32,000 bases of DNA, from assembly GCF_900289195.1 (NCBI RefSeq), contig NZ_OMOH01000004.1, forward strand, positions 210,001 through 242,000, given 5' to 3'. This DNA comes from Propionibacterium ruminifibrarum. Its GTDB lineage: Bacteria > Actinomycetota > Actinomycetes > Propionibacteriales > Propionibacteriaceae. Below the pieces are notes generated by a model. It ran no database searches, had not been told where the DNA came from, and saw only the letters and a program-made list of their open reading frames with translations. Each line of letters starts with the position of its first letter. The first letter of the stretch is position 1. Positions 1,547-27,871 of the stretch are shown piece by piece. The position numbers and the translations under genes were made by a program.

Positions 1547-1816
1547 CCGGCCGATGGTCCCGCGGCGTGCTCACGGGCGCGCCGCAGGCCCATGCCGTCG
1601 CAGACCCGCGCCGCCCCTGGCCGGCCCGGCCCTCAGAAACCAGGGCCGCGGACAGCTCCGAGGCACTGCCCAGGGCGGGCCGGACCACGAGCACGATCGC
1701 ACCCCGCACCCGTCCCGGAGCCAACAAACGGCAGGTCGGCCCGCCGCCCCGGTTCATCGGCGACCATGGTGCCCCTGGCCGGCGACGCCGCCGTGCCCGA
1801 CACGAAAGGAGGGTCA

Positions 1817-3307
1817 ATGCAGATCACACCCTATGGAAGCGTCCTGGCCGACGTCACCGGCGGACGGGTCGTCGGTGTCGTCGACAACGACGGCATGAAG
1901 ATCTTCCGGGGCATCCCGTACGCGGCAGCCCCGTACGGCGCCAACCGCTTCAAGGCGCCCCAGCCGGTCGAGCCGTGGGACGGCGAACGCGACGCGACGA
2001 CCTTCGGCCCCAGCACCTACCAGATCGAGCCGCTGTTCCGCGGCCACGGCTTCAACTACCGCGCCATCATGAGCCCGGGGTGGCGTCCCGGCGACGAGAC
2101 GCTCAACCTCAACATCTGGACCCCCGGCGAGGCGGGCGACAACCTTCCCGTGCTCGTCTACATCCATGGCGGCGCCTTCCTCACCGGCAACGGCGGCCTG
2201 CCCGCCTACGACGGCCACCACCTGGCCGAGCGCGGGGCCGTCTACGTCTCGATCCACTACCGCACCGGCACCGAGGGCTTCGGGGCCTTCGAGGGGGCGG
2301 CCACCAACCGCGGCCTGCGCGACCAGATCGCGGCCCTGGCCTGGGTACAGGAGAACATCGCCCGCTTCGGCGGCGACCCCGGCCGCGTCATGGTGCACGG
2401 CGAGTCGGCGGGCGGCATGAGCATCGCCCTGCTGCTGGCCAGCCCGGCCGCCGACGGGCTCTTCCACCGCGCGGTCGTCCAGTCCGGCTCGGCCCCGATG
2501 GCCGAGGGCCCCGAGCAGGCGGCGGACCGGGCGCGCCGGATCGCCGCGGCCCTGGGCACCGAGCCGACGGCCGGCGCGATCGCCGCCGTCGACCAGAAGA
2601 CACTGCTCGACACCGCGCTGGCGGCCCTGGCCGAGCACCACACCGACCGGTGGGACATGCTCGCGCTCGGCCCGTGGGTGGACGGCGAGATCGTCCCCGA
2701 GCACCTCGACACGGCGATGCTGTCCCGGCCCGCGCGCCGGACGGTCTGGGGCACCAACCGCGACGAGGGCAATCTGTTCCTCATCACGCCCGACATGATG
2801 GCCACCGCCACCGAGGAGACCCTGGCCGGTTACCTGCTGGCGTCCCACGGCGCGGTCGAGCCGCTGCGCACGATGCTGCTGGAACGCACCCGCATCCACG
2901 AGCCCGGCATGGCGCTGGCCCAGCACCTGTCCTGGACGACCTTCACCGGCCCGACGATGACGGCCGTCGACCAGCTGGCCCGGGACGGGCGCCCCACCTG
3001 GCTGTACCGCTTCGACTACGCCTCACGCGCCGACGACGGCCGCGCCCAGGCATGCCACATGAGCGAGTTCCCGTTCGTCTGGGACAACCTCGACAGCCCC
3101 GCGCACCGGCAGATGACCGGCCCCAACCCGCCCCAGCGGCTAGCCACGGAGATGGCCGACGCCTGGGTGCGCTTCGCCGCCACCGGCGACCCGGGCTGGC
3201 CGGCCTTCACCGACCCGCAGCGGATCGCCCACGTCTTCGACACCACCAGCAGTGACGTGCCCGGCCTCGACCAAGAGCTCTGGCGGGCCTGGACCGGCAA
3301 GGACTGA
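1817..3307 (+). CDS. Carboxylesterase/lipase family (type B, para-nitrobenzyl-esterase-like)
   Basis: In-frame ATG at 1817 is preceded by AAAGGAGGG. The upstream part of track ORF 1592-3307 is P/R/G-rich junk. Motifs: FRGIPYAAAPYGANRF, oxyanion HGGAF, nucleophile elbow GESAGG. Confidence 0.85.
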   Translation: MQITPYGSVLADVTGGRVVGVVDNDGMKIFRGIPYAAAPYGANRFKAPQPVEPWDGERDATTFGPSTYQIEPLFRGHGFNYRAIMSPGWRPGDETLNLNIWTPGEAGDNLPVLVYIHGGAFLTGNGGLPAYDGHHLAERGAVYVSIHYRTGTEGFGAFEGAATNRGLRDQIAALAWVQENIARFGGDPGRVMVHGESAGGMSIALLLASPAADGLFHRAVVQSGSAPMAEGPEQAADRARRIAAALGTEPTAGAIAAVDQKTLLDTALAALAEHHTDRWDMLALGPWVDGEIVPEHLDTAMLSRPARRTVWGTNRDEGNLFLITPDMMATATEETLAGYLLASHGAVEPLRTMLLERTRIHEPGMALAQHLSWTTFTGPTMTAVDQLARDGRPTWLYRFDYASRADDGRAQACHMSEFPFVWDNLDSPAHRQMTGPNPPQRLATEMADAWVRFAATGDPGWPAFTDPQRIAHVFDTTSSDVPGLDQELWRAWTGKD

Positions 3308-3516: not shown

Positions 3517-6015
3517 ATGAGAACACTCGACCAGATCGCCGGCTTCACCCAGACCCCGACCGGCCTGCGCGCGGAGATCGCCGGTGGCTTCACGCTGCAC
3601 CTCGACATCCTCGAGAACACCCTGGCACGCGTACGCGTCCTGCCGGCCGACGCCCCCGCCGTCACCGGCACCTGGCTGATCACCCCGGGCCGACCCGTCG
3701 ACGAGGACACCGGCCTGGACCCCGAGCACCTGCTGACCCCGGCCGAGGACGTGCCATGGTCGGGCCGGAACCGTTCGGATCTGAGCGGCTTCACCTGCCC
3801 GGCGGTCACCGTCGAGGAGGTCGACCTGGAGGCCGACGGCCCGGCCGTCACGGGCATGGGCCGCAACGCCACCGACGAGATGGCGATCTTCGACCGCCCG
3901 CGCCCCGGCCAGCACCGCATCATCGTCGCCAGCGGCGACCTGCGGGCCGTCGTCCAGGACATCCCGTTGCGCATCTGCTGGCAGGTGCGCGTCGACGACG
4001 GGTGGACGACCATCACCGAGGACCGGCGCACCGGCGGCTACGAGATCAACCCGCGGACCGGGCGGGTCGCGCACTACATCATGCGCGAACCCGAGGACCG
4101 CTACTACGGGCTCGGCGAGAAGGGCGGCGACCTGGAGCGCACCGGGTCCAGCTACGACATGCGCTGCCTGGACGCGATGGGCTACGACGCCGTCGAGACC
4201 GACCCGCTGTACAAGCACGTGCCGTTCATCATGACCCGCCGCGCCGGGGCCGGGGCCGCCGGCATCCTCTACGACAACCAGACGGCCGCCGTGCTCGACA
4301 TGGGACGGGTCAAGGACAACTACCACCGCCCCTTCATCAGCTGGACGGCCGAGGGCGGTGACATCGACTACTACGTCATGGTCGGGCGGCGGCTCGCCGA
4401 CCTGACCAGGGCCGTCGTGCGCCTGACCGGCGACAACGCCTTCCTGCCGCGCTGGGCGCTGGGCTACTCCGGCTCGACGATGCACTACACCGACGCCCCG
4501 GACGCCGCCGGGAAGCTGCTGGAGTTCCTCGACCTGCTGGGCGAGCACCGGATCCCCTGCGACTCCTTCCAGATGTCCAGCGGCTACACGAGCATCGGCC
4601 CGAAGCGCTACGTCTTCAACTGGAACCGGGACAAGTTCCCCGACCCGCGGGCCACCGCGCAGGCGTACGCCGACAAGGGGCTCCACCTGGCGGCCAACAT
4701 CAAACCGGCCCTGCTCGTCGACCATCCGCTGTTCGACGAGGCCGCGGCCCGGGGTGTCTTCGTCACCGATGCCGAGACCGGCGAACCCGAGCTGAGCCTG
4801 TTCTGGGGCGACCGCGGCGCGCACGTCGACTTCACCTCGCCGGCCGGGCGGGACTGGTGGAAGGAGAACGTCCGCACCAAGCTGCTCGAGATGGGCATCG
4901 GCTCCACCTGGAACGACAACAACGAGTACGAGGTCTGGGACGACCGCGCGGTGTGCGAGGGTTTCGGCTCGAAGGCGCCGCTGGCTCTCATCCGCCCCGT
5001 CCAGTCCCTGCTCATGATGCGCGCCTCCGCCGAGGCCCAGCGCGAGTTCGCGCCGACCGAGCGCCCCTACCTCATCTCGCGTTCGGGCATGCTCGGCATG
5101 CAGCGCTACGTCCAGACGTGGAGCGGCGACAACTACACCAGCTGGAAGACCCTGAAGTACAACACCCGCATGGGCACCGGCATGTCGATGAGCGGCGTGT
5201 TCAACGTCGGCCACGACGTCGGCGGGTTCTCCGGCGCCGCCCGACCCTCGCCGGAGCTGTTCGTCCGGTGGGTGCAGAACGGCGTCATGCACCCGCGTTT
5301 CACGATCCACTCCTGGCACGACGACGGCTCGGTCAACGAGCCGTGGATGTACCCGGAGGTCACCGACCTGATCCGGGACGCCATCGAGCTGCGCTACCGC
5401 CTCATGCCGTACCTGTACACGGCCCTCTACCTGGGATCGCAGCGCCGCGAACCGATCATCGCCCCGACCTTCTACGCGGACGAGTCCGACGAGTCCCTGT
5501 TCGTCGAGAACGACGACTTCCTGCTGGGCCGTGACCTGCTCGTGGCCAGTGTCGTCGAGGAGGGCGCCACGACCCGCACCGTGCGGCTGCCCGGCGTGCC
5601 GGGCGGCTGGTTCGAGTTCGACACCGGCGTCCACCACGACGGCGGGCAGACGGTCACCGTCGACGCGCCGCTGGAGCGGCTGCCGCTGTTCGTGCGCGCC
5701 GGCGCGGGCATCCCGCTGGCCGAGCTTCCCGATGACGCCGACATCGTCACGACGACCTCGCTGGAGGCCACCGGTCGGCGGGTCGTCCTCTACCTGCCCG
5801 AGCGCGTCACCGACGCCCAGGGCTTCCTGTTCGAGGACGACGGCGTCAGCGACGCCTACCTGGACGGCGACGGGCTGTGGCTGCGCTGGAGCGTCGACGC
5901 CGACGAGACGCAGGTGCGCGTCCACACCGAGCGCGCTGGCCGGTTCGCCCCGGCCTGGGGGCAGGTCGAGTTCGTGCTGCGGCCCGGCGACGACCGAGAG
6001 ATCGTCGTCGACTGA
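3517..6015 (+). CDS. Glycoside hydrolase family 31 (alpha-glucosidase/alpha-xylosidase-like)
   Basis: 832-aa ORF with GAGGAG upstream. GH31-type catalytic regions are GSTWNDNNEYEVW (nucleophile region) and RYVQTWSGDNYTSW (acid/base region). Confidence 0.85.
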   Translation: MRTLDQIAGFTQTPTGLRAEIAGGFTLHLDILENTLARVRVLPADAPAVTGTWLITPGRPVDEDTGLDPEHLLTPAEDVPWSGRNRSDLSGFTCPAVTVEEVDLEADGPAVTGMGRNATDEMAIFDRPRPGQHRIIVASGDLRAVVQDIPLRICWQVRVDDGWTTITEDRRTGGYEINPRTGRVAHYIMREPEDRYYGLGEKGGDLERTGSSYDMRCLDAMGYDAVETDPLYKHVPFIMTRRAGAGAAGILYDNQTAAVLDMGRVKDNYHRPFISWTAEGGDIDYYVMVGRRLADLTRAVVRLTGDNAFLPRWALGYSGSTMHYTDAPDAAGKLLEFLDLLGEHRIPCDSFQMSSGYTSIGPKRYVFNWNRDKFPDPRATAQAYADKGLHLAANIKPALLVDHPLFDEAAARGVFVTDAETGEPELSLFWGDRGAHVDFTSPAGRDWWKENVRTKLLEMGIGSTWNDNNEYEVWDDRAVCEGFGSKAPLALIRPVQSLLMMRASAEAQREFAPTERPYLISRSGMLGMQRYVQTWSGDNYTSWKTLKYNTRMGTGMSMSGVFNVGHDVGGFSGAARPSPELFVRWVQNGVMHPRFTIHSWHDDGSVNEPWMYPEVTDLIRDAIELRYRLMPYLYTALYLGSQRREPIIAPTFYADESDESLFVENDDFLLGRDLLVASVVEEGATTRTVRLPGVPGGWFEFDTGVHHDGGQTVTVDAPLERLPLFVRAGAGIPLAELPDDADIVTTTSLEATGRRVVLYLPERVTDAQGFLFEDDGVSDAYLDGDGLWLRWSVDADETQVRVHTERAGRFAPAWGQVEFVLRPGDDREIVVD

Positions 6016-6144: not shown

Positions 6145-6708
6145 GTGAGTGAGCCCGGATCGGTCAATGCGCTGCGCGTCGGCGACGCGGATCGCGGTGC
6201 CGTCGTCGAGATGCTGACCAGGGCACACGCCGAGGGACGCCTCGACCTGGCGGAGCACTCCGACCGCTCCGACCGGGCCCTGACGGCCAGGACGGTGGGC
6301 GACCTGCTCGCCCTGGTCGAGGACCTCACACCGGCACGCATCCCCCAGGCCGCACTGCCCGCGCCCAGGGGCTCGGGGGCGGTCCGCGCGACGTTGGGCA
6401 GCACCCGCCGCGCGGGGGCCTGGATGGTGCCCGAGACACTGCACGTCTCGGTCCTCATGGGCGACGCCAAGATCGACATGACCGAGGCCGTCTTCACCCA
6501 CCCCGTCGTGGAACTCGATGTGAGCATCATCATGGGCGACGTGAAGTTGTACGTGCCGGCGGGGCTCACCGTCATCGACGAGTGCACCCACATCATGAGC
6601 GACTTCAAGATCAAGGGGATGCTTCAGCCGGCTCAAGGCGCCCCCACGATCATCGTCAAGGGTTCGAGCATCATGGGCGACGTGAAGGTGCGGGTGCGCC
6701 CCTCTTAG
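6145..6708 (+). CDS. DUF1707-domain protein with LiaF-like C-terminal repeat region
   Basis: GTG-start ORF. The N-terminus LRVGDADRGAVVEMLTRAHAEGRLDLAEHSDR matches the DUF1707 pattern as I recall it. The C-terminus has repeated IMGDVK(L/V) strands. Start codon is uncertain. Confidence 0.65.
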   Translation: MSEPGSVNALRVGDADRGAVVEMLTRAHAEGRLDLAEHSDRSDRALTARTVGDLLALVEDLTPARIPQAALPAPRGSGAVRATLGSTRRAGAWMVPETLHVSVLMGDAKIDMTEAVFTHPVVELDVSIIMGDVKLYVPAGLTVIDECTHIMSDFKIKGMLQPAQGAPTIIVKGSSIMGDVKVRVRPS

Positions 6709-7184
6709 ATCAGAGCGCTGAGACTCCCACACGAACCCGCGAACCGCTGGAACACTCCCAGGTGAGATGGCGATGACATCAGCGATGCCCGCGGATGGAC
6801 GGTTGCCGCCCGCCACCGTCTCGATATTCCCCGCCGCCCCGGCGAAACCATTGAAATGTTCAATGCATGGCACCAGAGATGGCGCTCGCCGAGGGCTGGC
6901 TTCCTTCGACGGGAAGAGGACCAGTGGTTGCCGTTGACCCGACTCAGGAGAGTGTGACGGGCATGAGGCGCATCGAGAAGCCATTTCGATGTAGGATGAT
7001 GTCGACGTGGGGCCAGTGCGAGAGCCGGTGTCCCGCCACCGCCCCGCGTGAGCGCTCGCACCCTTGTCAGAGCCATGTTCGTGTTGACAAGACCATAGGG
7101 ACGCCCTACGATTCCGGCAAGAGCGAGGGAGCGCTCGCAACACGAGGTATCGCCGCTTGTCAGCCCCCACAAAATCTGACAGAC
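6709..7184 (+). promoter_or_regulatory. Putative CRISPR leader (non-coding, locally lower GC)
   Basis: 476 bp with no credible ORF between the DUF1707 stop and repeat 1. An A-rich stretch CACAAAATCTGACAGAC abuts repeat 1. Contains a 7-bp inverted repeat CATTGAA-ATG-TTCAATG (6849-6865) and a duplicated AGCGCTCGCA...CTTGTCAG motif (about 7051 and 7130). The leader role depends on the inferred + orientation. Confidence 0.4.
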
Positions 7185-9024
7185 GTTTCCCCACCTGAAT
7201 AGGTGGGGCTCCATTGAGGCGTTCCGGACGCCCCAGTTAAATTGCTCGATGGTTTCGTTTCCCCACCTGAATAGGTGGGGCTCCATTGAGGCGCGTTGAT
7301 CCCCGCGATGGCATTCTCATAGTCGCCTGTTTCCCCACCTGAATAGGTGGGGCTCCATTGAGGCCTTGACAGTGTGCACGCCCGAATGTCATTCACCGAA
7401 GTTTCCCCACCTGAATAGGTGGGGCTCCATTGAGGCCCTATGACATGGCCGTATGGGAGTGATGACGATGAGTTTCCCCACCTGAATAGGTGGGGCTCCA
7501 TTGAGGCATCAGCTTGAGCAGCATGCTCTTTAACTGAGTGCCGTTTCCCCACCTGAATAGGTGGGGCTCCATTGAGGCTCGTGGACTGCATTGAGGGTTG
7601 CTGCCACCACGCCAGGTTTCCCCACCTGAATAGGTGGGGCTCCATTGAGGCACGGTGCGAGGCATGGTGGTCACGCAAGACAAGAAAAGTTTCCCCACCT
7701 GAATAGGTGGGGCTCCATTGAGGCTTCTGAAACTCGTTGACGTTGCACATGAGCACATGGTTTCCCCACCTGAATAGGTGGGGCTCCATTGAGGCTGTTG
7801 GACTTGCCGAACATCTTGATCTGGTGTGCCGTTTCCCCACCTGAATAGGTGGGGCTCCATTGAGGCCAGTGGGCGACGTTGACGGCGACGGCGTTGCCGG
7901 CCTGTTTCCCCACCTGAATAGGTGGGGCTCCATTGAGGCACCGCCATGAGGAAACTGCCCTCGCCCTGTGCGAGGGGTTTCCCCACCTGAATAGGTGGGG
8001 CTCCATTGAGGCTTGCGACTCAAGTCCTCAACGTCTCTGCCACGGCCCAGTTTCCCCACCTGAATAGGTGGGGCTCCATTGAGGCTTGCCGTAGTGGTCT
8101 GCGAGGCCACGCAGGGCCTCGTTTCCCCACCTGAATAGGTGGGGCTCCATTGAGGCAGGGTTTCGCCGGCGGTGATGATGTAGACCTCGGGGTGTTTCCC
8201 CACCTGAATAGGTGGGGCTCCATTGAGGCAGGACGATGTGTACGACACGGCCGTTGTCGAGCAGTGTTTCCCCACCTGAATAGGTGGGGCTCCATTGAGG
8301 CTCTCATGTACTCCGGTACCTCACCGGAGTGCTGTGCCCGTTTCCCCACCTGAATAGGTGGGGCTCCATTGAGGCGGTCATCATAGCTAAGGGATATGAA
8401 ACTGAACTCGTGTTTCCCCACCTGAATAGGTGGGGCTCCATTGAGGCCGCTCGACCTGGTGGACGAACAGACCCGCGAGCGGGCGTTTCCCCACCTGAAT
8501 AGGTGGGGCTCCATTGAGGCGCCGAGCTGGACAAGGAGATGCTCGCCCAGTACGAGTTTCCCCACCTGAATAGGTGGGGCTCCATTGAGGCGTGAGGAAC
8601 CCCGATCTCGTCACCCAGTGACCCTTCGTTTCCCCACCTGAATAGGTGGGGCTCCATTGAGGCGCGGCAATGGTGGTGACGGGTTCGGCGTGGGCCGGGT
8701 TTCCCCACCTGAATAGGTGGGGCTCCATTGAGGCGGCGCCAGCCGGTACGAGGTCGCCCCCCAGCTCGGCGTTTCCCCACCTGAATAGGTGGGGCTCCAT
8801 TGAGGCGAGATGGAGGCGATCAACCCGGCGATCTCGGCGGCCGTTTCCCCACCTGAATAGGTGGGGCTCCATTGAGGCGCCAGGGCTCGTGACACTGACG
8901 ACTTACCGACACCGAGTTTCCCCATCTGAATAGGTGGGGCTCCATTGAGGCTGGTCTCGCTGGGTTTCGGGCATGGCGGCCAGGATCGGTTTCCCCACCT
9001 GAATAGGTGGGGCTCCATTGAGGC
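7185..9024 (+). CRISPR. CRISPR array, 26 x 36-bp repeats and 25 spacers
   Basis: The repeat GTTTCCCCACCTGAATAGGTGGGGCTCCATTGAGGC was located by hand at 7185, 7257, 7329 ... 8989. Spacer lengths are 36, 36, 36, 35, 35, 37, 37, 35, 35, 37, 37, 37, 35, 37, 36, 38, 36, 37, 35, 36, 35, 36, 36, 37, 37, summing to 904. With 936 bp of repeats that gives 1,840 bp, which is consistent. 25 repeats are identical; repeat 25 (8916-8951) has CCCCATC instead of CCCCACC. Each repeat has an internal 7-bp stem CCCCACC/GGTGGGG with loop TGAATA. Strand was inferred from repeat architecture. Confidence 0.97.
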
Positions 9025-9061
9025 GATTCTTTGATCGTCTCCAGGGCGATTCAGACCCCAG

Positions 9062-9424
9062 ATCGTGAAGAACCTGAAACCGGTCTACGGGGCTGCCGAT
9101 GCCACCGATGCCGGGCAGGCGTGTGAGGAGTTCACCGCCAAGTGGGGCAGACCTGCCTCGCGATCGTCCGGCTCTGGCGCGGCGCCTGGGGTCAGCAGAG
9201 CCCTGTTCCTGGACCACCGAACCTCGGGGAGCCGTAAGGTTCTCTGCCCTCTCGAACCCGAATCGAAAGCCTCAATGCCAGGTTCGGTCGCGCGGTGAGA
9301 GCGAGGAGCCACTCACCAGAACGAACTGGCCGCATTGAAACCTTGTCCCTGGCCGCCAGATCGCCCGCACCGTACCGCCCGGCCCCGGGGCGAGCACTCG
9401 CGCCAGGACTCGGAGGCCAAGGAT
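9062..9424 (+). pseudogene. IS256-family (mutator-type) transposase, degraded C-terminal fragment
   Basis: Pieces in three different frames read IVKNLKPVYGAADATDAGQACEEFTAKWG, AIVRLWRGAW, FLDH...RKVLC, IESLNARFGRAVRARSHSP, NELAALK and LSLAARS. These are colinear with the C-terminal third of IS256 transposases as I recall them (DLKAIY...FAEKWG..YPAIVRLWRNAW..FLDY..EIRRVI..TNAIESLNARFRRAVRARGHFPNEQAALKCLYLA). Several frameshifts and stops are present, and the N-terminal two thirds is absent. Confidence 0.65.
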
Positions 9425-9427
9425 GAA

Positions 9428-9467
9428 GAAGAGGGGCCGCGGAACGATCGTTCCGCGGCCCCTCTTC
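9428..9467 (-). terminator. Perfect 40-bp palindrome downstream of galE
   Basis: GAAGAGGGGCCGCGGAACGA|TCGTTCCGCGGCCCCTCTTC lies 10 nt past the galE stop. On the minus strand it is followed by TTCATCC. It could act bidirectionally. Confidence 0.6.
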
Positions 9468-9476
9468 TGGTTCGAG

Positions 9477-10445
9477 TCAGCCCTGGTGGGCCTTGCGGGC
9501 CGACCAGGCCGAGGCGACCATGTCGTCGAGGCTGTTGCGCATCTTCCAGTCGATGTCGCGGGCCGCGAGCTCGCCGCGGGCGACGATGCGGGCCGGGTCG
9601 CCGGGACGCCGGGGCGCGATCTCGGGGGTGAAGTCGATGCCGGTGACGCGGGCGATGGCCGCCATGATCTCACGCACCGACGAACCATTGCCCGAGCCCA
9701 GGTTGTAGGAGGGCTCCAGGGGGCGGCCGGCCATCATGGCCTCGGCCGCCGCCACGTGCGAGCGGGCCAGGTCGGCGACGTGGATGTAGTCGCGCACGCA
9801 GGTGCCGTCGGGCGTCGGGTAGTCGTCGCCGTTGATGCGCGGCGTCCGGCCCTCGAGGAGCATGTCGAAGACGATCGGGAACAGGTTGTGCGGGCTGGCG
9901 TCGTACAGCTCGTCCGTGCCGGAGCCGACCACGTTGAAGTAGCGCAGGTTCACCGACTGCCAGGCCTCGTCGACGGCGGCCATGTCCCTGTTGAGCCATT
10001 CGCCGATGAGTTTGGTCTCGCCGTAGGGCGACTCGGGGTGCAGCGGGGTGTCCTCGGTGACCGGGTCGGTCTCGGGCGTGCCGTAGACCGAGGCGGACGA
10101 GCTGAACACGTAGCGGTGGACGCCGGCCTCGCGCATGGCCCGCAGCAGCGAGACGGTGCCGGTGACGTTCTGCGTGTAGGTGTGCAGCGGGCGTGAGACG
10201 GACACGCCCGCGTACTTGAAGCCGGCCAGGTGGACGACGCCCTGGCAGGAGTGCTCGGTGAGCGCGCGGCGCACGAGAGCTGTGTCGAGGATGCTGCCCT
10301 GTACGAAGGGCACCTCGCGGGGTACGAAGTCGGCGAAACCGCTCGACAGGTCGTCGATGACGACCGGCTCGATACCTGCCTGCTGGAAGGCCCGCACGAT
10401 GTGCGAGCCGATGTACCCTGCCCCGCCAGTGACCAACCAGCTCAT
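9477..10445 (-). CDS. galE: UDP-glucose 4-epimerase
   Basis: True start is ATG at 10445, preceded by AGGAGG; the track ORF extends spuriously to 10706. Motifs: WLVTGGAGYIGSH Rossmann, catalytic SPYGETK (YxxxK), and RYFNVVGS. Length is about 322 aa. Confidence 0.9.
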   Translation of the reverse strand: MSWLVTGGAGYIGSHIVRAFQQAGIEPVVIDDLSSGFADFVPREVPFVQGSILDTALVRRALTEHSCQGVVHLAGFKYAGVSVSRPLHTYTQNVTGTVSLLRAMREAGVHRYVFSSSASVYGTPETDPVTEDTPLHPESPYGETKLIGEWLNRDMAAVDEAWQSVNLRYFNVVGSGTDELYDASPHNLFPIVFDMLLEGRTPRINGDDYPTPDGTCVRDYIHVADLARSHVAAAEAMMAGRPLEPSYNLGSGNGSSVREIMAAIARVTGIDFTPEIAPRRPGDPARIVARGELAARDIDWKMRNSLDDMVASAWSARKAHQG

Positions 10446-10723
10446 GAATCCTCCTTGCGCGCCTGTCGGACGGGCCGACGCTTCGCCCTCGGCCGAGCCT
10501 ACCGAGTGTCTGCCCTCCGCCGGCAGTGACGCACCCATGTGCTTCTCACTGACCAATCCATCCCCGGCATGTCCGCGACATGTGAATTCACTCGCGGCAT
10601 CCTGTGAAACGCCTCTGGAATGGGCCTGGCAGGCGCGAATGCCACGACCGCGCCCTTGCTGCGGGCTAATGTTCCCGAACAACAGAACAGCGGCGAGGCT
10701 GTTCACGGACGCAAGGAGTCCTC

Positions 10724-17398: not shown

Positions 17399-17983
17399 AT
17401 GCTCGGAACCAGGTACCCCCGCGTGGGCCGGGCAGTGGCGTTGTCGTCGCTGGCGGCGGTGCTCTGCGCGACCGCGTGCACGCCCTCCCCCTCGCCTCGT
17501 CCCCAGCGTTCGGGCAGCGGCTCGGCCGCCCCGGCGAGCAGCGCGGCCTACGACTACTCCCCCTTCACCGAGCAGACCTACGAGCAGGTCGAGGTGAGCG
17601 ACGACCCCACCCGGGTCACCCGCTTCCTGCCCGAGCTGAACGTCTCGCAGGCCCACTCGATGATCGCCAGCCGGGAGAGCCCCCGCGAAATCCCCGGCCC
17701 CGACCCCCAGTACTGGATGAACGCGGTAGTCACACTCGAACAGGACTCGGTCGAGGCGCTGGCTGAACGCGTCGATCCCCACGAGTTGAGCACGCTGCCC
17801 GCCCTCGCCCCCGAGCTCCAGCAGTACGTCCCGGAGGGCTGCACCTTCACCCGGCTGCCGCTGAAGAACGCGACGCCCGTCACAGGTGCCACGCCGGCCA
17901 GCGCCGACAGTTTCCAGCTCACCGCGTTCTCGCTGTCGACCGGCTGCTCGACGGCGATCATCATGGCCGAGATCGTCTACTGA
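17399..17983 (+). CDS. Hypothetical secreted lipoprotein
   Basis: AAGGGGAGG RBS. Signal-like N-terminus with Cys (LAAVLCATAC) followed by an S/P-rich linker. No family recognised. Confidence 0.55.
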   Translation: MLGTRYPRVGRAVALSSLAAVLCATACTPSPSPRPQRSGSGSAAPASSAAYDYSPFTEQTYEQVEVSDDPTRVTRFLPELNVSQAHSMIASRESPREIPGPDPQYWMNAVVTLEQDSVEALAERVDPHELSTLPALAPELQQYVPEGCTFTRLPLKNATPVTGATPASADSFQLTAFSLSTGCSTAIIMAEIVY

Positions 17984-17989
17984 GCGGCC

Positions 17990-19387
17990 TCAGCGCCCGG
18001 GCGCATGGACCGTGCTCGTGGCCCCGGACTCCTCGACGAGCAGGCCGTCGACGACCGTCGTGAATCGTGGCGCCTCGCGCAGCATGGCCCCGTCGCTGGA
18101 GTAGATCGTCCAGCTGTCGTCCCTGCTGGCCCTGCCGCCGTGGGTGTAGGTGCGGGCCAGCACCATCGACCCATCGGCGCTGACCAGATCGATGAAGTCG
18201 GCATCGATGAGTTCGCGTGAGGGCAGCATCCTGATGCTGCCGCCGAAACGGATGGCCACCACCTCGCCCGAGGCATCGACACCGGCCTTGGTCGTGAACC
18301 GGCTGCTCATGAGCAGGTCGTCCCGGGAGTAGAGCAGCCCGCTCGAACCGTAGCCGGGCAGGTTGATCGCGTCGACGTCCCCACGGCGGTTGCCGTTCAG
18401 GTCGAAGACGAGCCGGGACAGCCCGCCGCCGTTGCCGTTGGTCGTGAAGCCGTTCCACAGCCATTCGACCGACAGTTCGTCGCCGGCGTGGTCGTACTCG
18501 GTGGGGTCCAGGCTGAACCGGCCGGTGTCCAGGTCGATGACGGCGATCTGCGCGTCGGCATACGAGACGCACCCGAGATGATCGCCGAGGAAGCGGCACT
18601 GGCCCCACCAGGGCAGGTCGAGCCGCCAGTCCACCGCGCCGTCGGGGCCGACGGCGAGCACCTGTTGGTTGTCGGGGCCGGCCGCCTCGGTGATGACCAG
18701 GGTTCCGTCGCGCTCGCCCTGGGCTTGGACGAAGGACAACTCCTCACTGTCCTCGAGGACGACCCGCTGCCCGCCGGTCGCTATGTCGACGGCCACGAGC
18801 CGGTTGAGCCCGTCGTCCGTCACCCGCGCGCAGTAGACGGAGCTGGCCAGGACGGCGGCACGGCCCATGCACCTCAGCCCGGTGACCCGCCAGCGTTCGG
18901 CGCCGGTGGCGGTGTCGAGGCCGACCAGGTCCTCGCTGCTCTCGTCCTGGCCGTTGGAGCCGCGTTGCGTTGCGACCGTCGTCCAGTCCGAGGAGCGGCC
19001 CAGCACCGTCGCATCGGTGCGCCACGAGGTGTACCCGTCGGCGTAGCCGGTGTTGAGCCAGTCGCCGTCGGAGCTCTGCGGCGAGTAGGCGACCCGCCGG
19101 GCGGCGTACTCGGCAGTGCCCGGGCCGCCCAGGAGGGTGTTGGTCACGAGCCCTGCCACGAGGACGAAGACCACTGCGAAAATGACGAGCCAGACCCGCA
19201 GGATCCTGCGGGCGCGGTCACCCAGACCGCGGCGGGCCGGCAGTACCGGGGTGTCGGGGTCGTCGGTGCTGGCCCGCCGAGGGGAGGCCTCGGGATGCAG
19301 CGTCGGGCCACTGGCGTGGCCGGGCTGCTCGGTGCTCGATGACGCGTCCGGTTCGGGGGTGTCGGACGCGCCCTGCTGCTGCGACAT
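17990..19387 (-). CDS. Membrane-anchored protein with PQQ-like beta-propeller repeats
   Basis: Start is ATG at 19387 (MSQQQG..., GGGAGAA upstream). Has a disordered N-terminus and a single TM segment (VWLVIFAVVFVLVAGLV). Repeated (L/I)D..TG...W motifs: GLDTATGAERWRV, VAVDIATGGQRV, VIDLDTGRFSL. The upstream 310 codons of the track ORF are antisense to ppgK. Confidence 0.65.
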   Translation of the reverse strand: MSQQQGASDTPEPDASSSTEQPGHASGPTLHPEASPRRASTDDPDTPVLPARRGLGDRARRILRVWLVIFAVVFVLVAGLVTNTLLGGPGTAEYAARRVAYSPQSSDGDWLNTGYADGYTSWRTDATVLGRSSDWTTVATQRGSNGQDESSEDLVGLDTATGAERWRVTGLRCMGRAAVLASSVYCARVTDDGLNRLVAVDIATGGQRVVLEDSEELSFVQAQGERDGTLVITEAAGPDNQQVLAVGPDGAVDWRLDLPWWGQCRFLGDHLGCVSYADAQIAVIDLDTGRFSLDPTEYDHAGDELSVEWLWNGFTTNGNGGGLSRLVFDLNGNRRGDVDAINLPGYGSSGLLYSRDDLLMSSRFTTKAGVDASGEVVAIRFGGSIRMLPSRELIDADFIDLVSADGSMVLARTYTHGGRASRDDSWTIYSSDGAMLREAPRFTTVVDGLLVEESGATSTVHAPGR

Positions 19388-26095: not shown

Positions 26096-27871
26096 TCAGC
26101 GCGGCCGCAGCTCGGGGTGCAGGAACCATTCGCGCAGCGTGCTGGTGCGCTCGGCGACCTGCTCGGTCGTGCACTGGGCCAGTCGGGGCCCGCCGCAGTG
26201 CCTGCGCAGCGCGGCGTGCACGTGCGAGTGCGGCACCCCGACAGTGCGGGCGTACTGGGACACGAGCGAGTTCAACTCCTTGCGGGACGCCTCGAGCGCC
26301 TTGTGCAGGCTCACCTGCTGCGGCACCTTGGCCTTGCGGTCGGCCTTCTCGTGGCGGCGCATCTGGCGGCGCTGACGCTCCCGCAGCAGCGCACTCACCT
26401 GGTCGGGTTCGAGCAGCCCCGGCAGCCCGAGGTAGTCGGCCTCGTCCTGGCTGGTGGCGTCGGCCGGCAGCCCGTAGGCCTGCGAGTCGAAGAGCACGTG
26501 GTCGAAGTTCGCGTGCGCCTCGAGCGCCTCGAAGCTGCCGAGCAGGTCGTCGCTGGCCTGTTCGGCGCGGTTGGCGGCCGCGAGCAGTGCCTCCTCGGGC
26601 GCCCACAGGTCGCCCTCGTCGTTACGCGGGCGGCCGATGACGTGGTCGCGTTCGCGTTCGAGCAGGGCGGCGTGCGCCAGGAGGATCGGCACGGTCGGCA
26701 GGAAGACGGTCGCCAGCTCGCCCTTGCGGCGGGTGCGGACGAAACGCCCGACGGCCTGGGCGAAGAACAGCGGCGTCGAGGTGTTCGTCGCGTAGACGCC
26801 CACGGCCAGGCGCGGCACGTCGACCCCCTCGGAGACCATGCGCACGGCGACCATCCAGCGTTCGTCGGACTCGGAGAACTCGGCGATGCGGCGGCCGGCG
26901 TTCGCGTCGTCCGAGACGACCAGCGCCGGAAGCTCACCGGTGACCTGGTGGAGGATCCGCTGGTAGGCGCGGGCCAGCTCCTGGTCGGATGCGATGACCA
27001 AGCCGCCGGCGTCGGGCATGTGGGTGCGCACCTGGCTCAGCCGGGTGTCGGCGGCGCGCAGCACCGAGCCCATCCACTCGCCCTTCGGGTCGAGTGCGGT
27101 GCGCCAGGCCGACGCCGTGACGTCCTTCGTCGCCGGTGCCGCCAGGTCGGCCTCGATCTCGTCGCCCATCCTGGTGCGCCAGCGCATCTGCCCGCCGTAG
27201 GCCATGAAGATGACGGGACGGACGACCTGGTCGCGCAGCGCCTCCGCGTAGCCGTAGGTGTAGTCGGCGTGCGAGTGCAGGGAGCCGTCGTCGAAGCGGT
27301 CGTAGCGGACGAACGGGATCGGCGAGTCGTCGCTGCGGAAGGGCGTGCCGGTCAGGGCCAGGCGGCGGGTTGCGGGTTCGAAGGCCTCGGCGATCGCGTC
27401 GCCCCAGCTCAGCGAGTCACCGGCGTGGTGGATCTCGTCGAGGATGACGAGCGTCTTGAAGTTCTCGGTGCGGGCCCGGTAGTGGAAGACGCGGGCGGCG
27501 ACGCCGGCGTAGGTGACGGCCACCCCGTCGTACTGGCGGCTGCGGCCCTTGCGGCCGGCACCGCCCAGGCCGGGGTCGAGCTGGATACCGACCTTGGCCG
27601 CGGCCTGGGCCCACTGGGTCTTCAGGTGCTCGGTGGGGCACACGACGATGACGCGCTGCACGATGCGGGCGCCGAGCAGTTCGGCGGCTACCCGCAGAGC
27701 GAACGTCGTCTTGCCCGCGCCGGGGGTTGCCACTGCGAGGAAGTCGCGCGGTGATGCCTCGTTGTAGCGGGCGAGGGCGTCACGCTGCCAGGCGCGCAGC
27801 CGGCCCGATGTGCCCCACGGCGCACGGCCGGGGAAGGCGGGCGACAGGTGCTCGAAGGCCGAGGTGCTCAT
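26096..27871 (-). CDS. Superfamily-2 DEAD/DEAH-box helicase (ResIII-type N-terminal domain)
   Basis: Motif I ATPGAGKT, motif II ILDEIHHAG, motif III LTGTPFRSD, motif VI QAVGRFVRTRR. No HD nuclease domain is visible. Confidence 0.8.
   Translation of the reverse strand: MSTSAFEHLSPAFPGRAPWGTSGRLRAWQRDALARYNEASPRDFLAVATPGAGKTTFALRVAAELLGARIVQRVIVVCPTEHLKTQWAQAAAKVGIQLDPGLGGAGRKGRSRQYDGVAVTYAGVAARVFHYRARTENFKTLVILDEIHHAGDSLSWGDAIAEAFEPATRRLALTGTPFRSDDSPIPFVRYDRFDDGSLHSHADYTYGYAEALRDQVVRPVIFMAYGGQMRWRTRMGDEIEADLAAPATKDVTASAWRTALDPKGEWMGSVLRAADTRLSQVRTHMPDAGGLVIASDQELARAYQRILHQVTGELPALVVSDDANAGRRIAEFSESDERWMVAVRMVSEGVDVPRLAVGVYATNTSTPLFFAQAVGRFVRTRRKGELATVFLPTVPILLAHAALLERERDHVIGRPRNDEGDLWAPEEALLAAANRAEQASDDLLGSFEALEAHANFDHVLFDSQAYGLPADATSQDEADYLGLPGLLEPDQVSALLRERQRRQMRRHEKADRKAKVPQQVSLHKALEASRKELNSLVSQYARTVGVPHSHVHAALRRHCGGPRLAQCTTEQVAERTSTLREWFLHPELRPR

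What the first reader, a model, noticed from the sequence alone, without database searches (positions are those of the whole stretch)
7185..9024. Large, almost perfectly conserved CRISPR array with no cas genes in 32 kb
The array has 26 repeats, 25 of them identical, and 25 unique-looking spacers, so it looks functional or recently active. Yet none of the ORFs in the 7 kb upstream (ldh, NTF2-like, esterase, GH31, DUF1707) or the 23 kb downstream shows Cas1, Cas2, Cas3-HD, Cas5/6/7 or Cas10 features. It may be an orphan array, an array served in trans by a distant cas locus, or what remains after deletion of the cas operon.
Basis: partly seen in the sequence, partly recalled or inferred. Interest (0 to 1): 0.7.

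Follow-up and report, generated by a model that had tools for sequence, protein, structure and literature searches.

The report
Stand-alone type I-G CRISPR array
This is a genuine, recently active CRISPR array of the type I-G class in a Propionibacterium chromosome; it has no cas genes nearby and is most likely served by cas genes elsewhere, an arrangement already known to be common.

Summary
Window 7185-9024 holds 26 copies of a 36-bp repeat. Twenty-five are identical and one has a stem-preserving C>T change. The 25 spacers are unique and 35-38 nt long. No Cas protein is encoded in the window, nor in about 17 kb to the left or 29 kb to the right of the array in same-species contigs.

The repeat belongs to the type I-G (formerly I-U) class. 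It has an 8-bp hairpin and a 12-nt tail ending in ATTGAGGC. Arrays with this tail in metagenomes sit next to cas3g, cas7g, csb2, cas4/cas1g and cas2. The window leader carries the same CTCGC motif at -51 as those cas-adjacent arrays, plus a conserved promoter-like site.

The same cas-less array occupies the same site (DUF1707 gene to epimerase gene) in Propionibacterium australiense, whose flanks are about 90% identical and which shares no spacers. Near-identical strains differ at the leader end of the array. Acquisition has therefore continued without adjacent cas genes.

The best reading is a distant array served in trans. A leftover of an adjacent cas deletion is unlikely. A true orphan cannot be excluded, because I could not scan the whole genome. 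Distant and orphan arrays make up about 35% of all arrays, so interest is low.

The parts
6709..7184 (+). Leader: the 476-bp non-coding stretch between the DUF1707 gene stop and the first repeat.
   Evidence: It holds no high-GC3 ORF. It is about 90% identical to the P. australiense leader, and the last roughly 150 bp are well conserved (alignment A1). Spacer differences between strains lie at this end of the array.
7084..7112 (+). Promoter-like site TTGACA-17-TACGAT reading into the array, 73 nt upstream of repeat 1.
   Evidence: It is the only site found in 6600-9600, with 10 of 12 matches. Both hexamers are unchanged in P. australiense and in two other strains (A1). This is a consensus match only; transcription was not shown.
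7134..7138 (+). Leader motif CTCGC at -51 from the first repeat, shared with cas-adjacent type I-G arrays.
   Evidence: CTCGC lies at -53 to -49 in 36 of 53 non-redundant arrays of this repeat class and almost nowhere else in their last 100 nt. The 36 include the window and P. australiense leaders. It is also present in L144, directly downstream of cas2.
7185..9024 (+). CRISPR array: 26 repeats of 36 bp and 25 unique spacers of 35-38 nt. The transcribed strand is inferred to be +.
   Evidence: define the array. The repeat folds into an 8-bp stem, a 4-nt loop and a 12-nt 3' tail, CUCC+AUUGAGGC. Spacer lengths match cas-adjacent I-G arrays.
8916..8951 (+). The single variant repeat (C>T, copy 25 of 26), near the trailer end.
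   Evidence: Found. The same variant repeat sits in the same relative position in five other contigs (mismatch lists), so it is old. The stem is kept as a G-U pair.
9025..9385 (+). Trailer replaced by a frameshifted C-terminal remnant of an IS256-family (Mutator-type) transposase gene. The recognisable coding part is about 9056-9357, and the remnant abuts the last, perfect repeat.
   Evidence: A conceptual translation stitched across one frameshift matches Pfam PF00872 Transposase_mut positions 272-367 of 379, with E = 4e-7 and 29.7 bits against a cut-off of 21. In P. australiense this stretch is replaced by a degenerate terminal repeat and an unrelated trailer. Homology resumes near 9385 (A2).

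Best explanation
This is a functional CRISPR array of the type I-G (formerly I-U) class. It sits at a fixed chromosomal site, between a DUF1707/LiaF-like gene and an NAD-dependent epimerase gene, in an uncultured Propionibacterium related to P. australiense.

Inferred mechanism. The array is transcribed from a promoter in its own leader. The transcript is cut inside each repeat by a Csb2 (Cas5-Cas6 fusion) enzyme, 4 nt 3' of the hairpin. This would give crRNAs of 71-74 nt that start with the 8-nt handle AUUGAGGC. These crRNAs would be loaded into a type I-G Cascade with Cas3. New spacers would be inserted next to the leader by Cas4/Cas1-Cas2.

All of these proteins must be encoded elsewhere: more than about 17 kb to the left, more than about 29 kb to the right, or on another replicon or mobile element. 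The array would then be a 'distant' array served in trans.

Shown here: the array anatomy, its repeat class, its leader signals, the absence of nearby cas genes, the conservation of the site across two lineages, and spacer turnover.

Inferred: transcription, processing, and the existence and location of the cas genes.
For: (1) Repeat class. A periodic scan for the 3' tail found more than 100 metagenomic arrays with 36-nt repeats built the same way. The flanking genes sampled in six such loci are Cas3g, Cas7g/Csb1, Cas5-6g/Csb2, Cas4-Cas1g and Cas2 (PADLOC E down to 1e-250; L144 gene table). The published I-U repeat of P. freudenreichii, ATTGCCCCTCCTTCTGGAGGGGCCCTTCATTGAGGC (PMC5644110), has the same architecture and tail.

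(2) Repeat geometry. An 8-bp stem followed by 12 nt fits the measured Csb2 cleavage in a type I-G system: 36-nt repeat, cut 4 nt 3' of the stem, 8-nt handle (PMC9638904).

(3) Spacer lengths of 35-38 nt equal those of cas-adjacent I-G arrays.

(4) The leader has the class-wide CTCGC motif at exactly -51 and a conserved promoter-like site.

(5) Recent acquisition. The window has spacers w1-w4 at the leader end. Five other same-species contigs have n1 and n2 there instead, and share 14 older spacers in the same order. A further contig starts with yet another spacer, n5. A MAG that carries the n1-n2 allele is 99.95% identical to the window over 3.7 kb of flank.

(6) Long-term maintenance without adjacent cas. 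P. australiense NML98A072 has the array at the same site, with an identical 36-nt repeat and at least 31 repeats. It shares no spacers, although the flanks are only 89-91% identical.

(7) Spacers look foreign. None matches the host loci. The newest spacers average 53% GC against 70% for the genome. Spacer w10 is 92% identical to C5-methyltransferase genes on Streptomyces plasmids.

(8) No cas genes or cas remnants were found in the window or its extended flanks.
Against: No cas gene of this organism was found, and I could not scan the genome.

In the one reference genome that could be searched by DNA pattern (P. australiense type strain), the 32-nt repeat core occurs only at this locus. There is therefore no second, cas-adjacent array with the same repeat. 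Any I-G cas operon there must either lack an array or carry a variant repeat.

Two protein searches with Cas4-Cas1g queries did not list a Propionibacterium protein in their top 120 of about 8000 hits. This is weak evidence, because the queries came from distant taxa.

No protospacer was found in phage, plasmid or IMG/VR collections.

The leader-end differences between strains could in principle come from differential deletion or from recombination between strains, rather than from acquisition in each strain.
Confidence: 0.6

Rival explanations
1. True orphan in this genome. The I-G cas genes are absent here. They were either lost recently or are present only in some strains of the population, for example on a genomic island or plasmid. 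The array persists as a silent but not yet decayed memory, and its leader-end variants arose in cas-positive relatives and spread by recombination.
For: No cas genes lie within about 46 kb around the array. The P. australiense reference has no second array with this repeat. In the sister species P. freudenreichii the I-U system is variably present, lies on genomic islands in several strains, and at least one strain keeps an I-U array remnant without cas genes (PMC5644110). Twelve percent of bacterial arrays are orphans (PMC7145637).
Against: Orphan arrays are usually short, about 8 repeats on average (PMC7145637); this one has 26 and the P. australiense one has at least 31. The repeat is 36/36 identical between lineages whose flanks differ by about 10%. 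The leader motif and promoter-like site are intact. Strains with 99.95% identical flanks differ in their newest spacers.
Confidence: 0.27
2. Remnant of an adjacent cas operon. The cas genes once lay next to this array and were removed by a deletion, perhaps mediated by the IS256 element whose remnant abuts the last repeat.
For: A truncated IS256-family transposase gene is fused directly to the last, non-degenerate repeat, which shows that a deletion removed the old end of the array.
Against: In cas-adjacent I-G loci the cas genes lie upstream of the leader, with cas2 followed by the leader and then the array. They do not lie at the trailer, where the IS remnant sits. Upstream of the leader here is the conserved block of ldh, esterase, GH31 and DUF1707 genes, also present in P. 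australiense. P. australiense has no IS remnant, keeps a degenerate terminal repeat and an ordinary trailer, and still has no cas genes on either side. No cas pseudogene fragments were detected. Spacer acquisition continued after the IS junction formed, since the junction is shared by all array alleles.
Confidence: 0.06
3. The array is used by a different CRISPR-Cas type in the genome, for example a type III or I-E system, or it serves a non-immune role such as a regulatory RNA.
For: The P. australiense type strain is reported to have 9 CRISPR elements (PMC6256612), so other systems may exist there. Cross-use of arrays between types is known (cited in PMC7145637).
Against: The repeat, the spacer lengths and the leader motif are all specific to the I-G class. 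Polarised turnover of 35-38-nt spacers requires an adaptation module that recognises this repeat and leader. No spacer matches the host sequences in hand.
Confidence: 0.05
4. Not a CRISPR array: a chance or assembly-derived tandem repeat.
For: None beyond the lack of cas genes. Rfam has no model that reaches threshold.
Against: The array was assembled independently in at least 8 contigs from different samples and in an isolate genome. It shows the expected spacer polymorphism and a class-typical repeat and leader.
Confidence: 0.01

Closest known systems
Type I-U/I-G CRISPR-Cas of Propionibacterium freudenreichii (Deptula et al. 2017, PMC5644110)
   Same: Same genus. The repeat is 36 nt with the same layout: a short 5' tail, a GC-rich hairpin and a tail ending in CATTGAGGC. 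By my own count, 24 of 36 positions are identical. Some strains keep an I-U array remnant without cas genes.
   Different: In P. freudenreichii the arrays lie next to cas3, csb1, csb2, cas4/cas1 and cas2, often on genomic islands. Here no cas genes lie within about 46 kb, and the stem sequence differs. I could not test whether the chromosomal site is the same, because the GH31 marker gene has no close P. freudenreichii homologue.
Type I-G system of Thioalkalivibrio sulfidiphilus (Shangguan et al. 2022, PMC9638904)
   Same: The repeat is 36 nt. It has a hairpin followed by 12 nt, which allows Csb2 cleavage 4 nt 3' of the stem and an 8-nt 5' handle. The mature crRNA is about 72 nt, matching the 71-74 nt predicted here.
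   Different: That system is a complete cas operon with biochemical proof. Here only the RNA-coding half is present, and nothing was tested experimentally.
'Distant' CRISPR arrays served in trans (Bernheim et al. 2020, PMC7145637)
   Same: The array is far from any cas cluster. Its repeat can be assigned to a known subtype. It is presumed to be used by cas genes encoded elsewhere.
   Different: With 26 repeats it is larger than the average distant array (13) or orphan array (8) and is similar to cas-adjacent arrays (24). Its site is conserved across two species-level lineages with complete spacer turnover. The cognate cas locus has not been found.
The orthologous array in Propionibacterium australiense NML98A072 (NZ_RCIV01000033 / NZ_RCIV01000012)
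   Same: The 36-nt repeat is identical. The flanking genes and the leader are the same (about 90% identical), and there are no adjacent cas genes.
   Different: All spacers differ. It has a degenerate terminal repeat and an ordinary trailer in place of the IS256 remnant. In the draft assembly the array is split across two contigs.

Membership tests
CRISPR array (generic) | Three or more near-identical direct repeats of 23-55 bp, regularly spaced | tested here: met
   There are 26 repeats of 36 bp, 25 of them identical, with a period of 71-74 bp.
CRISPR array (generic) | Unique spacers within a narrow length range | tested here: met
   There are 25 different spacers of 35-38 nt. The best pairwise ungapped match is 20 nt.
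CRISPR array (generic) | Polarised spacer variation between related strains (new spacers at the leader end, shared spacers at the trailer end) | tested here: met
   Array alleles A, B and C differ at the left end and share 14 older spacers in the same order.
Type I-G (formerly I-U) CRISPR-Cas | A 36-nt repeat with a hairpin and a 12-nt 3' tail that yields an 8-nt handle (AUUGAGGC-like) | tested here: met
   Fold. The same tail occurs in arrays next to I-G cas genes. The geometry matches PMC9638904.
Type I-G (formerly I-U) CRISPR-Cas | Leader shared with cas-adjacent arrays of the class | tested here: met
   CTCGC lies at -51 in 36 of 53 non-redundant arrays of the class, and in L144 next to cas2. 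This motif is my own observation, not a published definition.
Type I-G (formerly I-U) CRISPR-Cas | Signature genes cas3g, cas8g, cas7g (csb1), csb2 (cas5-cas6 fusion), cas4-cas1 fusion and cas2 at the locus | tested here: not met
   None was found in the window or in -17 kb / +29 kb of same-species flanks (Pfam, PADLOC and tblastn). The array is therefore of the I-G repeat class but is not a complete I-G locus.
Type I-G (formerly I-U) CRISPR-Cas | pre-crRNA processed by Csb2 and crRNA loaded into I-G Cascade | not testable with these tools
   This needs small-RNA-seq or biochemistry.
Distant (trans-served) array, as defined in PMC7145637 | More than 20 kb from the nearest cas cluster | tested here: inconclusive
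   On the right, at least 28.8 kb is free of cas genes (window plus L129). On the left, only about 17 kb could be examined (window plus L002/L005).
Distant (trans-served) array, as defined in PMC7145637 | A cognate cas cluster elsewhere in the same genome | not testable with these tools
Protein searches list only the top 120 hits and showed no Propionibacterium entry.
Orphan array, as defined in PMC7145637 | No cas cluster anywhere in the genome | not testable with these tools
   Same limitation. Indirect evidence (recent spacer turnover and an intact leader) argues against long-standing orphan status.

The most novel reading that the evidence does not exclude
The P. australiense-group genomes carry no type I-G cas operon of their own, yet keep a large chromosomal array at a fixed site over species-level divergence. 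In this reading the array is refreshed and used only when I-G cas genes arrive on a mobile element such as a plasmid, ICE or phage. A stable chromosomal memory bank would then be decoupled from a mobile, intermittently present protein machinery.
Probability: 0.08. Interest if true: 0.6.

Novelty: new member of a known kind. Interest (0 to 1): 0.2.

Why it matters
The practical value is mainly for annotation. The array can be typed as I-G from its repeat, spacer lengths and leader alone. It marks an uncultured Propionibacterium lineage that probably has an active I-G system, and its spacers give a strain-typing marker and a record of unknown mobile elements with lower GC than the host.

The evolutionary point is modest. 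A cas-less array has stayed at one chromosomal site through about 10% sequence divergence with complete spacer turnover. That is a clean natural example of an array remaining active far from its cas genes.

It does not open a new question. Distant and orphan arrays together are about a third of all known arrays.

Tried and rejected
(1) The Rfam gathering scan of the window found nothing. A permissive scan gave only a sub-threshold CRISPR-DR20 hit (14 bits against a cut-off of 42). Rfam simply has no model for this repeat.

(2) The exact 36-mer was absent from the metagenome-contig collection and the 32-nt repeat core was absent from IMG/VR.

(3) Spacer targets. A BLAST of the whole array against 50,697 phage records gave one chance-level hit. 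Against plasmids, only spacer w10 gave hits, to a conserved C5-methyltransferase motif. Six 28-nt spacer cores (w1, w2, w3, w17, n1, n2) had no exact match in IMG/VR. No PAM could be derived.

(4) Looking for this organism's own cas genes. Cas4-Cas1g queries from the two metagenomic loci with the most similar repeat (L128) or leader (L078) returned about 8000 hits each. The listed top 120 were Acidimicrobiia, Nitriliruptorales and Frankiaceae for L128, and Pseudonocardiaceae and Mycobacterium for L078. One look-up of a well-sampled hit (P0077) gave an unrelated organism. This is not evidence of absence.

(5) Synteny test in P. freudenreichii through the GH31 gene. The gene has close homologues only in the P. 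australiense group, and the next-best hits are about 60% identical and lie in a different context. The test could not be made.

(6) Helicase 26096-27871 as a diverged Cas3. Rejected: it has ResIII/DEAD domains, its best PADLOC match is PbeA, it has no HD domain, and it is conserved next to argS in all strains.

(7) Contigs with a single repeat between leader and trailer (L137, L138). I treated these as probable assembly collapses, not as evidence of array loss.

(8) A full-text search for the repeat tail returned only unrelated primer sequences.
Full report

Yes. The window holds 26 copies of the 36-bp sequence GTTTCCCCACCTGAATAGGTGGGGCTCCATTGAGGC on the + strand, from 7185 to 9024. Twenty-five copies are identical, and copy 25 (8916-8951) carries a single C>T change. 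The 25 spacers between them are unique and 35-38 nt long. The repeat occurs nowhere else in the window.

As RNA the repeat folds into an 8-bp stem (CCCCACCU/AGGUGGGG), a 4-nt loop and a 12-nt 3' tail. The variant copy keeps the stem through a G-U pair. The window is 70% G+C, so the long ORFs that cross the array are artefacts.

**2. What surrounds the array?**

I picked real genes by GC3 and named them with Pfam.

- Upstream, all on the + strand: ldh (137-1093), a DUF4440/SnoaL protein (1175-1546), a carboxylesterase (1592-3307), a GH31 glycosidase (3517-6015) and a DUF1707/LiaF-like protein (6145-6708).
- A 476-bp leader, then the array.
- Downstream of the array: an NAD-dependent epimerase (9477-10706, - strand), a choloylglycine-family hydrolase, a methyltransferase, an iron-siderophore-type ABC transporter, TauE, two unknown ORFs, a ROK protein, LarC/LarB and a LarE-like protein, ArgRS, a DUF218 protein, a ResIII/DEAD helicase, an HtrA-like protease and the start of a PPi-type PEP carboxykinase gene.

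None of these is a Cas protein.

- PADLOC found no Cas match for the unknown or doubtful ORFs.
- The helicase matches PbeA-type models at 6e-24 and Cas3 models only at 7e-6 over about 40 residues. It is conserved next to argS in every strain.
- A tblastn search with a complete type I-G protein set (Cas7g, Csb2, Cas3g, the 301-aa subunit, Cas4/Cas1g, Cas2) gave no hit better than E = 0.3. The targets were the window, 10 kb further left, about 6 kb further right, and the P. australiense loci.

**3. Beyond the window edges.**

Contigs that encode exactly the window's ldh extend 10 kb to the left. They carry a PemK-like toxin, ABC ATPases, an aminotransferase, an acetyltransferase and YjbR, and no cas genes. 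A contig that encodes exactly the window's helicase extends to about 37.9 kb in window coordinates. It carries the HtrA-like protease, the PEP carboxykinase, a GATase and an ECF sigma factor, and again no cas genes. The array is therefore at least about 17 kb (left) and 28.8 kb (right) from any cas gene.

**4. Which organism, and is the site conserved?**

The 32-nt repeat core occurs in one species representative out of 185,579: Propionibacterium australiense NML98A072. It lies on two contigs there. These contigs are the two halves of the same locus, broken by assembly inside the array. One carries ldh, esterase, GH31, DUF1707, the leader and part of the array. The other carries the rest of the array, then the epimerase, CBAH and ABC transporter genes.

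The flanking genes are 89-91% identical to the window at the nucleotide level. A MAG contig from GCA_015062705.1 is 99.95% identical. The window therefore comes from an uncultured sister lineage of P. australiense.

The P. australiense array has at least 31 repeats, the same 36-nt repeat and no spacer in common with the window. A third lineage (L146, 85-90% identical) has different DNA, an AAA_21 ATPase gene, directly after the DUF1707 gene. The interval is therefore variable.

**5. Which CRISPR type?**

I scanned metagenomes for the periodic 3' tail with the pattern CATTGAGGC ... CTYCATTGAGGC. This returned 120 loci, of which more than 100 are arrays of 36-nt repeats with the same plan: a short 5' tail, a 5-8-bp GC-rich hairpin, and a tail of CTYCATTGAGGC.

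Where flanks were available and sampled, the neighbouring genes were:

- Cas3g (E about 1e-255)
- Cas7g/Csb1
- Cas5-6g/Csb2 (E down to 1e-184)
- the Cas4-Cas1g fusion (E down to 1e-250)

A complete operon (csb1, csb2, cas3, a 301-aa gene, cas4/cas1, cas2, then the array) is seen in L144.

The published P. freudenreichii 'subtype IU' repeat ATTGCCCCTCCTTCTGGAGGGGCCCTTCATTGAGGC (PMC5644110) is of the same kind. In the biochemically studied type I-G system, the 36-nt repeat is cut by Csb2 4 nt 3' of the hairpin, which leaves an 8-nt 5' handle (PMC9638904). The repeat here has exactly 12 nt after its stem (CUCC + AUUGAGGC), so the same rule predicts an AUUGAGGC handle and crRNAs of 71-74 nt. Spacer lengths (35-38 nt, mean 36.2) equal those of the cas-adjacent arrays (means 36.1-37.4).

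**6. Orientation and leader.**

Four independent signs place the leader on the left (6709-7184) and transcription on the + strand.

- The class-typical tail CATTGAGGC is on the + strand.
- The only variant repeat lies near the right end.
- Strains differ at the left end (see section 7).
- A promoter-like site, TTGACA-17-TACGAT at 7084-7112, is the only one in the region and is unchanged in P. australiense (A1).

I also anchored 53 non-redundant arrays of this class at their first repeat. In 36 of them the pentamer CTCGC lies at -53 to -49, most often at -51, and it is nearly absent from other positions. The window (7134-7138) and P. australiense have it at exactly -51, and so does L144 just downstream of cas2. 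The leader is therefore a complete I-G-type leader, not a truncated leftover.

**7. Is the array active?**

Same-species contigs carry three array alleles.

- Allele A is the window: w1 to w25.
- Allele B is on five contigs from different samples, including the MAG that is 99.95% identical in its flanks. It reads n1 n2 w5 w6 w10 w11 w12 w14 w15' n3 w16 w17 w18 w19 n4 w21 w24 w25.
- Allele C begins with yet another spacer, n5.

Old spacers are shared in the same order. The leader-end spacers are allele-specific, and the internal differences look like deletions. This is the classic signature of polarised acquisition, and it occurred between nearly identical strains.

All alleles share the same trailer junction, so acquisition went on after that junction formed. 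Between the two lineages the spacers turned over completely, while the repeat stayed 36/36 identical against about 10% divergence in the flanks.

The spacers also look foreign.

- None matches the host DNA in hand.
- The nine newest average 53% G+C and the sixteen older ones 65% (Mann-Whitney p = 0.001), against 70% for the genome.
- Spacer w10 is 92% identical to a conserved part of C5-cytosine methyltransferase genes on Streptomyces plasmids.
- Spacer n3 of allele B and one P. australiense spacer overlap on what looks like homologous targets.

No protospacer was found in the phage, plasmid or IMG/VR collections.

**8. The trailer and the deletion hypothesis.**

The last repeat (8989-9024) is perfect and is fused directly to a frameshifted C-terminal fragment of an IS256-family transposase gene (Pfam PF00872 positions 272-367 of 379, E = 4e-7). 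P. australiense instead has one more, degenerate repeat and an unrelated trailer of about 270 bp. Homology to the window resumes near 9385 (A2).

So an IS-associated deletion clipped the old end of the array in the window lineage. This is not the scar of a lost cas operon, for three reasons.

- In I-G loci the cas genes precede the leader. They do not follow the trailer.
- The lineage without the IS remnant has no cas genes on either side.
- No cas pseudogene fragments remain.

**9. Interpretation.**

The data show a complete and recently active array of the type I-G class that has existed without neighbouring cas genes since before two lineages diverged by about 10%. The simplest mechanism is service in trans by I-G cas genes encoded elsewhere in the genome or on a mobile element. 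I give this a probability of about 0.6.

The main rival, at about 0.27, is that this particular genome lacks the cas genes. This could be through recent loss, or because the cas genes are present in only some strains, as is documented for P. freudenreichii in PMC5644110.

One observation weakens the simple two-array picture. The P. australiense reference has no second array with this repeat. Any cas operon there would have to lack an array or use a variant repeat.

I could not settle this.

**10. Novelty.**

Arrays far from cas genes are common. In complete bacterial genomes 23% of arrays are more than 20 kb from a cas cluster and 12% are orphans, and 75% of the distant ones share the subtype of a cas cluster in trans (PMC7145637).

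This array is larger than the typical distant array (26 repeats against 13) or orphan array (8). It is also a clear case of a conserved site with ongoing turnover. But it is a new member of a known kind. Interest is low, at about 0.2.

The -51 CTCGC leader motif of I-G arrays, noticed along the way, may be the more useful by-product. I did not check whether it has been described before.

Noticed in passing
window 7134-7138; leaders of L014, L017, L020, L024, L044, L046, L059, L078, L111, L115, L144 and others: A pentamer CTCGC, often as GCGCTCGCRA, lies 51 (+/-1) nt upstream of the first repeat in 36 of 53 non-redundant arrays of the ...CTYCATTGAGGC repeat class. The arrays come from many taxa, and several are next to I-G cas genes. 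A looser GGTCA/TGTCA element follows about 25 nt before the repeat. This may be a leader-anchoring signal for type I-G adaptation. I did not check whether it is already described.
   Followed up: partly
window 9025-9385: A frameshifted C-terminal remnant of an IS256-family transposase gene (PF00872) is fused directly to the last, perfect repeat. P. australiense has a degenerate terminal repeat and a different trailer at this position. An IS-associated deletion therefore removed the oldest end of the array in this lineage.
   Followed up: yes
window 7221-8988 (spacers): Spacer G+C rises from the leader end to the trailer end: the mean is 0.53 for w1-w9 and 0.65 for w10-w25 (Spearman rho 0.60, p = 0.001). 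The two newest spacers of the other allele are also low in G+C (0.44 and 0.50). Recent acquisitions seem to come from DNA with much lower GC than the 70% GC host.
   Followed up: partly
window 7867-7903 (spacer w10): This spacer is 85-92% identical to a conserved segment of DNA cytosine methyltransferase genes on several Streptomyces plasmids. It probably targets a methyltransferase gene of an unknown actinobacterial mobile element.
   Followed up: partly
L001 spacer n3 (between w15' and w16) and the sixth spacer of L008 (P. australiense): ACCCCGCTCCCACGCGCCGATGCACTCGGCAAGCGCC and CCACGCGCTGATGCTCTCAGCAAGCGCCTCGCCCAG overlap over about 27 nt with 3 mismatches. The two lineages appear to have sampled homologous targets independently.
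   Followed up: no
L146 13186-14068 (ERZ26139110 NODE_919): A third lineage, 85-90% identical to both the window and P. australiense, has no leader or array directly after its DUF1707 gene. An AAA_21-type ATPase gene on the opposite strand lies there instead. The DUF1707-epimerase interval looks like a variable, possibly defence-related, hotspot. The contig ends after 880 bp, so an array further on is not excluded.
   Followed up: partly
window 17399-19387: Two ORFs (194 aa on the + strand, 465 aa on the - strand) have no Pfam or PADLOC match and lie between the TauE and ROK genes. In other strains of the same species (L130, L132, L133) this interval instead holds a DeoR regulator and PTS EIIA/EIIB/EIIC genes. 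This is a strain-variable cassette.
   Followed up: no
window 28487-28653: A perfect 30-bp tandem repeat, 5.6 copies at 100% identity, lies in the 5' part of the HtrA-like protease ORF and encodes a repeated decapeptide. Further Gln/Pro/Tyr-rich imperfect repeats lie at 28897-29055. My ORF start (28319, 672 aa) does not match the gene called in other assemblies (630 aa), which is why the exact look-up failed.
   Followed up: no
window 26096-27871 (- strand): A ResIII/DEAD helicase whose best defence-database matches are PbeA models (E = 6e-24). It is conserved next to the DUF218 and argS genes in all strains, so it is probably a housekeeping helicase rather than a defence gene or Cas3.
   Followed up: partly
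L137 and L138 (GCA_040307615.1 JAWRJE010000055.1; Logan SRR7030482): These contigs join the leader, one repeat and the IS256 trailer directly. This is most likely a collapse of the array by short-read assembly. MAG-based surveys would then under-count or miss this array.
   Followed up: no
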